Origin: a virus
Taxonomy: Duplodnaviria; Heunggongvirae; Uroviricota; Caudoviricetes
Virus record (IMG/VR): IMGVR_UViG_2925897562_000001
DNA: 64,000 bases
Reading direction: 5' to 3' (one strand)
Shown: positions 43,249 through 44,223 of the stretch, piece by piece
Numbering within the stretch: position 1 is the first letter of the stretch
Layout of the letters: every line of letters begins with the position of its first letter
Translations under genes and position numbers: made by a program
The notes under the pieces: model-generated
What the model was told of the DNA's origin: nothing
Database searches by the model: none
What the model saw: the letters and a program-made list of their open reading frames with translations, nothing else

Positions 43249-44223
43249 TTATCCGTTACCGCACGACGGTTTCTGCGTGATAAACGTCTCAAGCATCTTT
43301 TCCGCAATTGCCGACCAGGTGTGACACTGGACCTTTTCAGCATTTTTCACGCGATCAACGCGAGCAATAACCTCATCCCAATCAATCCGCGACTTGATAA
43401 CCATATGGTTCACCAAAGCCAGGCGATCTGGCGGAAGGCAATCGGGAGGCGTTAATACCAACGCCCCGCACATTGCCGCCTCAAGAACAGTTAATCCAAG
43501 GCTTTCGGGATGCGTAACGATAAAAACGTCACTCTTACGCAATTCAGCTGCAAATTCGGTTGCTGGCACCGGCGTCCGTCTGTATGGAATTACCGAAATA
43601 TTCCCCGGATCAATGGTAACCAATCCGTCATCAGTCAACGTTCTGGCCTCATACGGAACGGTCAGACGCTGAAGGTTCATAAGGATACTTAAGGAGTGAT
43701 CAAACCCACTAACATCAAATGCAGCGTGGTCTACAAAAATACGCAGAACATCGTCTGTTTTGGTTTCCAGATGGAACAGATCCTGATTCGCTGCCCATCC
43801 AACATGTTTGTTAAAGCGATTATGACGCTCTAACCTGCCGGGATTATCCAGGTACCGCCAGGTATCATCGCGGACAGTAAAAGTAATATCGACTGGTGCC
43901 GAATCCAGCATAGAACCGTCATATACCTGGGCTACCCATCCAGAGAATCGGCGACACAGTTGCATGCCTATTTCCCTGGGTACCGTAGTAAAATACCTCA
44001 ATCCTGGTGCCAAAATGGCCTTCGCAGAACATGCGGTCGCAGCAGTCAACACAGCTTCAACATAATCCTCCGGGCTTTCGACGCCGGGGGAATATGGACG
44101 ATGGTATTGCAATGTAACCCCTGCCTCACTAAAGGCGCAGGCCAGGTTATAAGCCCACATTTCCGTATATGTTTTCACATCACTGATAGCTTCAAATTTT
44201 CGCCCAATGATCAGGATGTTCAT
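43249..44223 (-). CDS. GT-B fold glycosyltransferase (GT4-like)
   Basis: 324 aa; C-terminal HPESLGLTVLEAAMCGALV matches the E-x7-E donor-binding motif of retaining GT4 enzymes. Confidence 0.6.
   Translation of the reverse strand: MNILIIGRKFEAISDVKTYTEMWAYNLACAFSEAGVTLQYHRPYSPGVESPEDYVEAVLTAATACSAKAILAPGLRYFTTVPREIGMQLCRRFSGWVAQVYDGSMLDSAPVDITFTVRDDTWRYLDNPGRLERHNRFNKHVGWAANQDLFHLETKTDDVLRIFVDHAAFDVSGFDHSLSILMNLQRLTVPYEARTLTDDGLVTIDPGNISVIPYRRTPVPATEFAAELRKSDVFIVTHPESLGLTVLEAAMCGALVLTPPDCLPPDRLALVNHMVIKSRIDWDEVIARVDRVKNAEKVQCHTWSAIAEKMLETFITQKPSCGNG

What the first reader, a model, noticed from the sequence alone, without database searches (positions are those of the whole stretch)
43249..44223. 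GT-B glycosyltransferase as the last gene of the ban (DnaB-like helicase) operon
The operon ban - 100-aa ORF - 324-aa ORF is translationally coupled (overlapping ATGA). The last gene carries the GT4 E-x7-E motif (HPESLGLTVLEAAMCGALV). I recall only one gene downstream of ban in P1, so this glycosyltransferase is probably accessory. Phage glycosyltransferases either modify DNA bases (anti-restriction) or host surface polysaccharide (lysogenic conversion); both are fitness modules. The tci genes I recall between trnI and ban in P1 appear absent here.
Basis: partly seen in the sequence, partly recalled or inferred. Interest (0 to 1): 0.5.

Follow-up and report, generated by a model that had tools for sequence, protein, structure and literature searches.

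The report
Phage P1's own dbn glycosyltransferase gene
The flagged gene is not an extra cargo gene but the ordinary, long-annotated dbn gene of phage P1 (a sugar-transferring enzyme of unknown target); what is really extra here is the small 100-codon gene wedged between the helicase gene ban and dbn, and dbn turns out to belong with three other P1 sugar-transferase genes that sit together as one cassette in other phages.

Summary

The gene that P1 lacks is the 100-aa ORF, on a 288-bp AT-rich segment found in about 11-12% of P1-like elements. Its rare distant homologues also sit directly after ban-like helicases in diverged P1 relatives that have no dbn. It therefore travels with ban, and reference P1 looks like a deletion derivative.

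The new result is that Dbn homologues in P2-like, lambdoid and IME392/EP_H11 phages lie in one operon with homologues of P1 PmgO and PmgP (MptE/WaaZ-like) and PmgQ (GT8-like). In P1 these genes lie about 7 kb away. Dbn is thus probably one step of a split four-enzyme glycan-building cassette expressed in lytic growth. The acceptor is unresolved: virion protein, host envelope glycolipid or DNA. As submitted, the finding is already known and of low to moderate interest.

The parts
43249..44223 (-). dbn (P1 Dbn / P7 Glt): 324-aa GT-B, GT4-like glycosyltransferase with E240-x7-E248
44220..44522 (-). 100-aa basic ORF (pI 9.9) between ban and dbn. Start overlaps the ban stop (TAATG); stop overlaps the dbn start (ATGA). 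Function unknown.
44224..44511 (.). 288-bp segment (GC 0.385) that replaces 13 bp of reference P1/P7. It carries almost all of the 100-aa ORF.
   Evidence: blastn break points. Junction sequences. GC content. Present in 51 PLSDB plasmids, 9 of 78 IMG/VR P1-like loci and 0 of 18 phage records.
44522..45892 (-). ban, the DnaB-like replicative helicase. The likely true start is the ATG at 45886, giving 454 aa as in P1.
   Evidence: Pfam DnaB_C and DnaB. P1 annotation. RefSeq plasmid annotation gives 1365 nt.
43202..43230 (.). Bidirectional intrinsic-terminator hairpin between the convergent genes 5 (baseplate) and dbn
   Evidence: Fold of -18.9 kcal/mol, z -4.9 on the dbn strand, followed by a U-tract; -18.7 kcal/mol on the other strand.
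46172..46247 (-). tRNA with CAT anticodon (P1 trnI, tRNA-Ile2) upstream of ban in the same transcription unit
   Evidence: ARAGORN. P1 annotation.
48902..48929 (.). Bivalent C1 repressor operator (P1 Oban / Op72) at the head of the ban transcription unit
   Evidence: Perfect and 2-mismatch matches to the C1 operator consensus. 14 sites in the window against 0.3 expected. P1 annotation.
36653..37315 (-). pmgO: MptE-like / 'sialyltransferase-like' protein, partner of Dbn in other phages
   Evidence: Pfam MptE-like E 5e-5, below threshold. phrog_4603. Homologues adjacent to Dbn homologues in L008, L010, L161 and L162.
36129..36755 (-). pmgP: second MptE-like protein, partner of Dbn in other phages
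   Evidence: Pfam MptE-like E 3e-4, below threshold. phrog_2111. Co-located with Dbn homologues.
35455..36147 (-). ppp: lambda-type Ser/Thr phosphatase inserted between pmgP and pmgQ. Not part of the cassette in other phages.
   Evidence: Pfam Metallophos E 9e-16. P1 annotation. No homologue found in the cassettes of the other loci.
34757..35458 (-). pmgQ: GT8-like GT-A glycosyltransferase (DLDT motif). In 10 of the non-P1 loci its homologue lies immediately downstream of the Dbn homologue.
   Evidence: Profile hits to Skp1 alpha-galactosyltransferase (E 6e-8) and glycogenin (E 3.5e-5). phrog_1962 'glycosyltransferase'. Adjacency.
38363..38379 (+). C1 operator (P1 O26/Op82) upstream of the pmgL-pmgQ gene string
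   Evidence: 2-mismatch match to the operator consensus. P1 annotation with late promoter LPpmgL.
46275..47319 (-). SPFH/Band-7 lipoprotein (275 aa) plus 78-aa membrane protein, occupying the place of P1 tciABC
   Evidence: Pfam Band_7 E 1e-30. phrog_200 and phrog_1130. Break points. Same variant in RCS47 and Ro157c2YLVW. 30 SPFH against 48 tci among the P1-like loci.

Best explanation
The 324-aa ORF is the resident dbn gene of phage P1, in a natural P1-like IncY phage-plasmid. It encodes a soluble, acidic, retaining-type GT4-like GT-B glycosyltransferase with an intact E-x7-E donor-binding motif.

It is transcribed at the end of the C1-repressed ban unit. It is translationally coupled to a small ban-associated ORF that reference P1 has lost.

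Dbn most probably does not act alone. It appears to be one step of a four-enzyme glycan-building set with PmgO and PmgP (MptE/WaaZ-like, probably ulosonic-acid transferases such as Kdo transferases) and PmgQ (GT8-like hexosyltransferase). This set is one contiguous operon in other phages but is split in P1 by the baseplate/tail operon. The set would use host nucleotide sugars in the cytoplasm during lytic growth.

Shown: gene identity, fold, motif conservation, co-location of the four gene families, and C1 operators in front of both P1 units.

Inferred: that the four proteins work in one pathway (about 0.7), and the acceptor. My pick for the acceptor is phage structural proteins, that is virion glycosylation (about 0.35), ahead of host envelope glycolipid (about 0.3) and DNA (about 0.1).
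For: Identity:
- 99% nucleotide match to P1 across 39001-44223.
- 5 of 324 amino-acid differences from P1 Dbn.
- Annotated dbn and glt at the same position.
- Present in 80/80 P1-like viral loci and 470 plasmids.

Enzyme class:
- AF2 pLDDT 95.
- E240 and E248 plus 13 other residues are invariant across homologues spanning 57-28% identity.

Cassette:
- PmgO-, PmgP-, Dbn- and PmgQ-like genes are contiguous in a P2-like phage (L008 4349-7047, directly after terminase and portal), a lambdoid phage (L010 6352-9619, just upstream of terminase) and the coliphages EP_H11 and IME392 (L161/L162 4900-7589).
- The Dbn-like and PmgQ-like genes are adjacent in six large-phage loci.
- All four families occur in the window and in a Citrobacter plasmid, but dispersed.

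Lytic-cycle expression: C1 operators precede both units.

Virion leaning:
- The cassette sits in late or packaging operons.
- The PmgO homologue of Pseudomonas phage D3 lies between the major head and head-tail adaptor genes.
- PAJU2 ORF010 was deposited as 'structural protein'.
- P7 named the operon hdm, 'head morphogenesis'.
- The closest viral structural neighbour is a Tupanvirus glycosyltransferase (TM 0.8).
Against: - There is no biochemical evidence for any activity or acceptor.
- The Pfam GT1 score is just below the curated threshold.
- The MptE-like assignments of PmgO and PmgP are sub-threshold.
- P1 virion proteomics and two cryo-EM papers contain no mention of glycans. That is absence of mention, not a test.
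- In P1 dbn is about 7 kb from its presumed partners and in a different operon.
- phiNP carries homologues of pmgO, pmgP and pmgQ (the pmgP homologue is known only from its record annotation) but no Dbn homologue. Dbn is therefore an optional step.
- Bacterial Dbn homologues sit in ABC-transporter polysaccharide loci. This points to lipid-linked glycans rather than proteins.
- 'Structural protein' and 'head morphogenesis' are depositors' labels of unknown basis.
Confidence: 0.4

Rival explanations
1. Host-envelope remodelling. Dbn, with PmgO, PmgP and PmgQ, adds Kdo and hexose residues to a lipid-linked glycan at the cytoplasmic face. The most plausible acceptor is LPS lipid A-core, which is P1's own receptor. 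This would change or truncate the core, so that infected or induced cells and their debris no longer adsorb P1 or other core-specific phages (superinfection exclusion or receptor masking).
For: - Bacterial Dbn homologues (33-40% identity) lie next to a WaaZ-like MptE protein. They sit inside ABC-transporter polysaccharide loci with Wzz-like, ABC-2 and ABC_tran genes (Brucella pseudogrignonensis L155), or with KpsF-like, KdsA and KdsB genes (L011).
- The cassette carries no sugar-nucleotide synthesis genes in enterobacterial phages, which fits use of the universal CMP-Kdo and UDP-hexoses.
- PHROGs files PmgQ under 'moron/host takeover'.
- That the P1 receptor is the LPS-core glucose is from general knowledge.
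Against: - Both P1 units are C1-repressed, so this would not be classical lysogenic conversion.
- The cassette also occurs in the isolated coliphages IME392 and EP_H11 (I take them to be lytic; this was not checked) and in very large phages. Surface conversion gives little benefit to a phage with no lysogenic state.
- Dbn is acidic (pI 5.5, N-terminal domain 5.9) and lacks an obvious basic membrane-binding surface.
- WaaG and WaaB are not its closest structural neighbours.
Confidence: 0.3
2. DNA glycosylation. The cassette decorates phage DNA bases with sugars as an anti-restriction or anti-defence modification.
For: - dbn is co-transcribed with the replicative helicase.
- The coliphages EP_H11 and IME392 carry the contiguous four-gene cassette next to DNA polymerase X and ligase genes. 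They are listed among 'RP13-like' phages predicted to have SP-15-type oligosaccharide-hypermodified thymidine (PMC12686479).
Against: - No Pfam match to the T4 DNA glucosyltransferase families was reported at E<=1.
- The GT4 enzymes are closer than T4 AGT.
- Dbn has no tblastn homologue in YerA41, SP-15 or RP13 at E<=1e-5.
- The same cassette moves between P1, P2-like and lambdoid phages. These are not known to make hydroxymethyl-pyrimidine acceptors, and P1 DNA is known to carry only methylation (general knowledge).
- Dbn is acidic.
Confidence: 0.1
3. Dbn acts independently of PmgO, PmgP and PmgQ on a small molecule, a tRNA or a host protein, or it is a decaying relic. The co-location in other phages would then reflect a shared cargo hotspot rather than a shared pathway.
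For: - dbn is non-essential.
- P7's copy carries an in-frame stop near the N-terminus.
- An IS element sits between ban and dbn in one locus (L083).
- phiNP has homologues of pmgO, pmgP and pmgQ without a Dbn homologue, and bacterial loci have Dbn without PmgQ.
- In the P2-like phage the cassette lies next to a KAP NTPase gene. From general knowledge of P2, the region between the portal and gpA genes is a cargo hotspot.
Against: - Dbn-like and PmgQ-like genes are immediate neighbours in at least 10 loci from several unrelated phage types.
- Fifteen residues are invariant down to 28% identity, and 470 plasmids carry dbn, 435 of them at >=80% coverage. This argues for purifying selection on an active enzyme.
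Confidence: 0.15
4. One reading: the glycosyltransferase is an accessory acquisition of this particular element, absent from reference P1.
For: That recollection is correct, and the one gene is dbn.
Against: Same gene at the same position in P1, P7, RCS47, SJ46 and others at 97-99%. It is present in all 80 P1-like loci examined.
Confidence: 0.01

Closest known systems
Phage P1 Dbn (YP_006544, 'downstream of ban; possible glycosyltransferase') and P7 Glt
   Same: Same gene. 319 of 324 residues are identical, with the same neighbours (ban upstream, convergent baseplate gene 5 downstream) and the same terminator region.
   Different: The protein here starts at the ATG that is codon 9 of the P1 annotation. 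Distant homologues all start there too, so the P1 start is probably over-extended. A 100-aa ORF is interposed between ban and dbn. P7's copy has an in-frame stop at codon 31.
Retaining GT-B glycosyltransferases of CAZy GT4/GT5 (sucrose-phosphate synthase, BshA, GlgM, PimA, PimB', WaaG)
   Same: Two-Rossmann-domain GT-B fold, and an E-x7-E motif in the C-terminal domain.
   Different: Only 12-15% identity. The protein is shorter (324 aa against 350-480). The Pfam score is just below the gathering threshold. It forms its own narrow family of 74 clusters. Donor and acceptor are unknown.
T4 DNA alpha- and beta-glucosyltransferases
   Different: No sequence-family match. No hydroxymethyl-pyrimidine pathway is known in P1-type phages (general knowledge). 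Dbn is acidic. It comes with MptE-like and GT8-like partners rather than dNMP hydroxymethylase genes.
GtrABC-type O-antigen seroconversion modules of temperate phages
   Same: Phage-borne glycosylation functions that are dispensable for growth.
   Different: Gtr modules consist of a GT2 bactoprenol glucosyltransferase, a flippase and a polytopic periplasmic transferase, and they are expressed in lysogens (general knowledge). Dbn is a soluble GT-B with no Gtr neighbours and lies in a C1-repressed unit.
Multi-glycosyltransferase clusters for virion glycosylation (mycobacteriophages, chloroviruses and giant viruses; recalled from the literature, not tested here)
   Different: No demonstrated homology of the cassette as a whole. 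No glycan has been reported on P1 virions.
WaaZ (KdoIII transferase) and Maf flagellin glycosyltransferases (MptE-like fold), relevant to the partner proteins PmgO and PmgP
   Same: Weak MptE-like profile matches for PmgO and PmgP. Bacterial neighbours of Dbn homologues match the WaaZ model at E 8e-10.
   Different: All scores are far below the curated cut-offs (38 against 200 bits). No activity is known.

Membership tests
P1 dbn orthologue group (phrog_2518) | High identity to P1 Dbn over the full length | tested here: met
   98.5% amino-acid identity with no gaps. phrog_2518 E 7e-233 over residues 1-324.
P1 dbn orthologue group (phrog_2518) | Conserved position: downstream of ban, convergent with baseplate gene 5 | tested here: met
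   Colinear 99% match to P1 across 39001-44223 and 44512-46256. Annotation.
GT-B glycosyltransferases, CAZy GT4-like (Pfam Glycos_transf_1) | Two Rossmann-like domains (GT-B fold) | tested here: met
GT-B glycosyltransferases, CAZy GT4-like (Pfam Glycos_transf_1) | E-x7-E motif in the C-terminal domain | tested here: met
   E240 and E248 are present and invariant in 52 homologues.
GT-B glycosyltransferases, CAZy GT4-like (Pfam Glycos_transf_1) | Score above Pfam PF00534 gathering threshold | tested here: not met
   25.1 bits against 26.4, E 1.5e-5, C-terminal 87 residues only. Precomputed Pfam hits exist for some cluster representatives, and RefSeq names it 'glycosyltransferase family 4 protein'. 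It is a divergent relative rather than a clean member by sequence.
GT-B glycosyltransferases, CAZy GT4-like (Pfam Glycos_transf_1) | Retaining transfer from an NDP-sugar donor | not testable with these tools
   Needs enzyme assays.
T4-type DNA glucosyltransferases (GT63/GT72) | Sequence-family match, or closest structural neighbour | tested here: not met
T4-type DNA glucosyltransferases (GT63/GT72) | Glycosylated bases in virion DNA | not testable with these tools
   Needs nucleoside LC-MS.
Gtr-type seroconversion module | GT2 bactoprenol glucosyltransferase with GtrA flippase and a membrane GtrC neighbour | tested here: not met
   The neighbours are ban, the 100-aa ORF and baseplate gene 5. 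Dbn is a GT-B protein with GRAVY -0.08 and no membrane segments evident.
Four-gene PmgO-PmgP-Dbn-PmgQ glycosylation cassette (defined here) | Homologues of all four genes encoded by the same element | tested here: met
   Window coordinates are pmgO 36653-37315, pmgP 36129-36755, pmgQ 34757-35458 and dbn 43249-44223. pmgO/P/Q were found in 70-73 of the 80 P1-like loci; I did not check why they are missing from the rest (many of these loci are short contig fragments).
Four-gene PmgO-PmgP-Dbn-PmgQ glycosylation cassette (defined here) | The four genes contiguous in one operon | tested here: not met
   In the window and in P1 they are split by about 5.8 kb of tail/baseplate and pmgL-N genes. They are contiguous in L008, L010, L161 and L162.
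Four-gene PmgO-PmgP-Dbn-PmgQ glycosylation cassette (defined here) | The four proteins act in one pathway | not testable with these tools
   Inferred from gene neighbourhood only.
Known anti-phage defence systems (PADLOC) | Profile match to a defence protein | tested here: not met
   No hit for Dbn, the 100-aa ORF or the SPFH protein at E<=0.1.

The most novel reading that the evidence does not exclude
P1's 'putative morphogenetic' genes pmgO, pmgP and pmgQ, together with dbn, form a mobile four-glycosyltransferase cassette. It is contiguous in P2-like, lambdoid and IME392/EP_H11 coliphages and split in P1. During lytic growth it would build a Kdo/hexose-type glycan on a phage-made macromolecule, most interestingly on virion proteins. 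That would be, to my knowledge, the first virion glycosylation system in classical coliphages. If the acceptor is instead DNA, the cassette would link P1 to the SP-15/RP13-type hypermodifying phages. Separately, the 100-aa ORF may be an ancestral Ban-associated factor lost from laboratory P1.
Probability: 0.3. Interest if true: 0.65.

Novelty: already known. Interest (0 to 1): 0.3.

Why it matters
As submitted, this matters little. The gene has been annotated in P1 since the 2004 genome as a possible glycosyltransferase, and it is core to P1-like phage-plasmids.

Three points are useful:
- The annotation can be corrected. The extra gene is the 100-aa ORF, and the P1 Dbn start codon is probably a remnant of that ORF.
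- The four orphan P1 genes dbn, pmgO, pmgP and pmgQ can now be treated as one testable glycosylation pathway. That is a concrete handle on genes that have had no function for 20 years in one of the most used phages in genetics.
- The 100-aa ORF is a candidate helicase-associated factor that laboratory P1 lacks.

Tried and rejected
- PADLOC gave no hits for Dbn, the 100-aa ORF or the SPFH protein. The 78-aa protein gave one non-significant hit.
- NCBIfam gave only noise-level hits for Dbn and the 100-aa ORF, and none for PmgO, PmgP or PmgQ.
- A profile of the Dbn family against PDB sequences gave only marginal hits (best E 0.002). Fold comparison was needed.
- Profiles of PmgO and PmgP against PDB sequences found nothing significant.
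- The scan of species-representative genomes found only 4 loci, which limits the bacterial context.
- The second viral scan, made with a distant-member alignment, still returned mostly P1-like loci.
- Literature searches for dbn, pmgO/P/Q, hdm, MptE-like plus phage, and WaaZ plus phage found no functional study.
- The 2004 P1 genome paper is not held in the library.
- The consensus scan found no convincing sigma-70 promoter for dbn inside the insert.
- P1's annotated operator Oppp was not recovered in the window at <=3 mismatches.
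Full report
**Observation.** The window carries three minus-strand ORFs: 44522..45892 (456 aa), 44220..44522 (100 aa) and 43249..44223 (324 aa).
- The first is a DnaB-type helicase (DnaB_C E 1e-107).
- The junctions read ...GAT TAT TAATG CAA... (ban stop and 100-aa start, 1-nt overlap) and ...ACG CAATGAAC... (100-aa stop and 324-aa start, ATGA overlap). AGAGGA and AAGGAG Shine-Dalgarno-like sequences precede the two starts.
- The quoted motif starts at residue 238 and gives E240-x7-E248.
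- A 12-bp hairpin at 43202-43230 lies between the convergent baseplate gene 5 and the 324-aa ORF. It folds at -18.9 kcal/mol (z -4.9) and is followed by a U-tract on both strands.

The only corrections are that one of the two overlaps is not ATGA, and that P1's tci genes lie upstream of trnI rather than between trnI and ban.

**Identity.** A megablast of 43000-46200 against phage genomes finds 18 P1-family records at 97-99%. Every one covers only 91% of the query, in two pieces.
- Pairwise blastn shows that the window is colinear with P1 NC_005856 over 39001-44223 (99.1%) and 44512-46256 (97.7%).
- The 288 bp at 44224-44511 replace 13 bp of P1.
- The 324-aa protein aligns without gaps to residues 9-332 of P1 Dbn, with 5 substitutions.
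- P1 annotates this gene as 'dbn: function unknown, possible glycosyltransferase'. P7 annotates it as 'glt: putative glycosyltransferase'.
- The gene is present in all 80 P1-like IMG/VR loci retrieved and in 470 PLSDB plasmids.
- A genome-wide CRISPRi screen classes it as non-essential (PMC10695390).

The glycosyltransferase is P1's resident dbn, not an added module.

**What is actually extra.** The 288-bp segment has GC 0.385, against 0.48-0.49 for its neighbours. It encodes nearly the whole 100-aa ORF, a basic protein of pI 9.9.
- It is present in 51 plasmid records and in 9 of 78 P1-like viral loci that include ban. The other 69 carry the short P1 junction or, in one case, an IS3-family transposase insertion.
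- None of the 18 phage-collection records has it.
- Its family is tiny. The word-indexed search found only near-identical sequences. An exhaustive HMMER scan of 1.8 billion representatives found 6 proteins.
- Two of the three distant members (43% and 34% identity) again start exactly at the stop codon of a ban orthologue (76% and 81% identical to Ban). They occur in diverged P1-like contigs that keep the RdgC-Dmt...DnaB...baseplate order but have no dbn downstream (L152, L159). The third is in an unrelated phage context.
- P1's annotated Dbn N-terminus (MQWNEEKP) shares ATGCAA-GGAA with the start of the 100-aa ORF. It also shares GGAAAAG with the ORF's end.
- All distant Dbn homologues begin at the methionine used here (consensus MKILLL...).

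The most economical reading is that ban plus the small ORF is the older arrangement. Reference P1 and P7 carry a deletion, and P1's annotated dbn start is a remnant of the lost ORF.

**The enzyme.** Dbn belongs to a narrow family of 74 clusters at 28-98% identity among 5.8 billion proteins.
- Fifteen residues are invariant: D102, W143, A144, D165, H166, D175, F234, T237, H238, E240, S241, G243, E248, G253 and W303.
- The AF2 model is confident (pLDDT 95.1, pTM 0.90).
- WaaB (16.7), T4 alpha-glucosyltransferase (15.8) and WaaG (15.1) rank lower.
- By sequence it is borderline. Pfam Glycos_transf_1 scores 25.1 bits against a cut-off of 26.4, and the family profile barely touches PDB sequences.
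- Among viral models the closest by far is a Tupanvirus glycosyltransferase (TM 0.78-0.81, E 4e-17).

The protein is acidic (pI 5.5) with no hydrophobic segments evident. It is thus a divergent GT4-like soluble glycosyltransferase with an intact nucleotide-sugar site. Donor and acceptor cannot be read from the sequence.

**Context in other genomes (the main new result).** I examined the neighbourhoods of Dbn homologues.
- P2-like phage (47% identity): the gene lies in a tight four-gene string directly after terminase and portal (L008 4349-7047).
- Lambdoid phage (56%): a five-gene string just upstream of terminase (L010 6352-9619).
- Isolated coliphages EP_H11 and IME392 (47-48%): a four-gene string (L161/L162 4900-7589).
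- All-against-all BLAST shows that the flanking genes are homologous between these loci.
- tblastn shows that all three flanking families are also encoded in the window, at 36653-37315, 36129-36755 and 34757-35458. These are P1 pmgO, pmgP and pmgQ.
- In six large or jumbo-phage loci a PmgQ homologue directly follows the Dbn homologue. Other glycan genes lie around them: a nucleotidyltransferase-cupin fusion, GT8, a GT47-like gene, a pyruvyl transferase and a methyltransferase.
- A 95-kb Citrobacter plasmid has the same dispersed layout as P1.

The partner proteins can be assigned as follows.
- PmgQ is a GT-A enzyme of the GT8 type. It has an invariant DxD (D79, D81), and its profile hits Skp1 alpha-galactosyltransferase (E 6e-8) and glycogenin (E 3.5e-5).
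- PmgO and PmgP are paralogous MptE-like proteins with sub-threshold Pfam matches. PHROGs labels the PmgO family 'alpha-2,3-sialyltransferase'.

P1 therefore encodes four putative glycosyltransferases that form one operon elsewhere. In P1 the tail/baseplate genes 5, 6, 24, 7, 25 and 26 and pmgL-N lie between dbn and the other three, and a lambda-type phosphatase gene (ppp) is inserted between pmgP and pmgQ.

Both P1 units are headed by C1 repressor operators. These are Oban at 48902-48929 and O26 at 38363-38379 in the window, and Op(hdm)/Oppp in the P7 and P1 records. The pmg string also has a late promoter. Expression is therefore expected on induction or infection, not in the repressed prophage.

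**What the cassette acts on.** Three lines of evidence point in different directions.

1. Bacterial homologues. Dbn-like genes in Brucella pseudogrignonensis, and in a metagenomic contig, lie directly after a WaaZ-like MptE protein (E 8e-10 to the WaaZ KdoIII-transferase model, far below its cut-off).
   - They sit inside ABC-transporter polysaccharide loci. One has Wzz-like, ABC-2 and ABC_tran genes. The other has KpsF-like, KdsA and KdsB Kdo-synthesis genes.
   - This suggests that the ancestral chemistry is extension of Kdo-containing, lipid-linked glycans.
   - Together with P1's use of the LPS core as receptor (general knowledge), it supports envelope remodelling.

2. Position in phage genomes.
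   - The cassette lies in late or packaging operons in the P2-like phage, the lambdoid phage and phiNP. In phiNP it sits between the lysis genes and terS.
   - In Pseudomonas phage D3 the PmgO homologue lies between the major head and head-tail adaptor genes.
   - PAJU2 ORF010 was deposited as 'structural protein', and P7's authors named the operon 'head morphogenesis'.
   - With the C1-repressed expression in P1, this favours a phage-made acceptor such as virion proteins.
   - However, P1 proteomics and cryo-EM papers do not mention glycans.

3. DNA.
   - EP_H11 and IME392 are listed among phages predicted to have SP-15-type oligosaccharide-modified thymidine (PMC12686479). Their cassette lies near DNA polymerase X and ligase genes.
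   - Dbn has no homologue in YerA41, SP-15 or RP13.
   - The cassette is shared by P1, P2-like and lambdoid phages, which are not known to make a hydroxymethyl-pyrimidine acceptor.

I rank the acceptors as virion protein about 0.35, host envelope glycolipid about 0.30, DNA about 0.10 and other or none about 0.25. The step 'the four enzymes act in one pathway' I put at about 0.7. It rests on gene neighbourhood alone, and phiNP, whose record and tblastn hits show pmgO-, pmgP- and pmgQ-like genes but no Dbn homologue, shows that Dbn is an optional step.

**Other differences from P1 in the same transcription unit.**
- tciABC are replaced by an SPFH/Band-7 lipoprotein (275 aa) and a 78-aa membrane protein.
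- This alternative is found in 30 of the P1-like loci, against 48 with tci, and in RCS47, Ro157c2YLVW and others.
- It corresponds to the published variable region 7 of P1-like phage-plasmids (PMC9603915).
- A tRNA-Ser(TGA) gene at 47583-47669 is absent from P1. It is present, unannotated, in P7.

**Verdict.** The central interpretation, an accessory glycosyltransferase not present in P1, is wrong: the gene is dbn, already known and annotated. The residual interest lies in the 100-aa ban-coupled ORF that reference P1 lacks. It also lies in the inference that dbn, pmgO, pmgP and pmgQ are a split version of a mobile four-glycosyltransferase cassette whose target is unknown.

Noticed in passing
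window 44224-44511 (ORF 44220-44522, minus strand): The gene absent from reference P1 is the 100-aa basic ORF, not the glycosyltransferase. It is carried by about 11-12% of P1-like elements. Its rare distant homologues are again translationally coupled to ban-like helicases in diverged P1-like contigs (L152, L159). P1 and P7 therefore look like deletion derivatives.
   Followed up: yes
L001 5225-5249 (P1 NC_005856 72635-72659): P1's annotated Dbn start (MQWNEEKP...) is probably 8 codons too far upstream. Those codons resemble the start and end of the lost 100-aa ORF. All distant homologues begin at the internal Met, which has its own GAGGA ribosome-binding site.
   Followed up: partly
window 46275-47319: P1 tciABC are replaced by an SPFH/Band-7 lipoprotein (275 aa) overlapping a 78-aa membrane protein. 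This is a common alternative allele (30 against 48 in IMG/VR loci). It assorts independently of the 100-aa ORF.
   Followed up: partly
window 47583-47669: A tRNA-Ser (anticodon TGA) gene that reference P1 lacks. The same gene is present but unannotated in the P7 record (L002 6946-7032).
   Followed up: partly
L002 about 4130-4160 (P7 AF503408 glt region): P7's copy of dbn has an in-frame stop (W to stop at codon 31 of the P1-numbered protein). This is why P7 Glt is annotated as a shorter protein separated from ban. It is either a pseudogene or a sequencing error.
   Followed up: no
L083 about 2650-4150: One P1-like contig has a 1.4-kb insertion encoding an IS3-family transposase between ban and dbn. 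The ban-dbn junction is therefore a recurrent site of change.
   Followed up: partly
L008 7644-11708: In the P2-like phage the glycosyltransferase cassette lies between the portal and gpA genes, next to a 1354-aa KAP-family NTPase gene on the opposite strand. From general knowledge of P2 this is the cargo/defence hotspot.
   Followed up: no
L164 5691-9143 (D3); L165 2974-4917 (PAJU2); L166 3998-6083 (Eowyn): A different conserved trio recurs in Pseudomonas D3-like siphophages and in the Klebsiella jumbo phage Eowyn. It consists of a PmgO-like protein, a protein of about 280 aa and a protein of about 205 aa. The 205-aa protein is annotated as a methyltransferase in D3. In the D3-like phages the trio is embedded in the head-tail gene module.
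   Followed up: no
window 36653-36755: pmgO and pmgP overlap by 103 nt in different frames, as annotated in P1. Homologues in other phages overlap by far less, so the annotated pmgP start may be too far upstream.
   Followed up: no
L003 6524-11170; L005 5190-11153: Very large uncultured phages (127-281 kb contigs) carry the Dbn-like and PmgQ-like pair inside a bigger glycan cluster. The cluster includes a cytidylyltransferase-cupin fusion, GT8, a GT47-like gene, a pyruvyl transferase and a methyltransferase, and it lies between helicase and RecA/terminase genes.
   Followed up: partly
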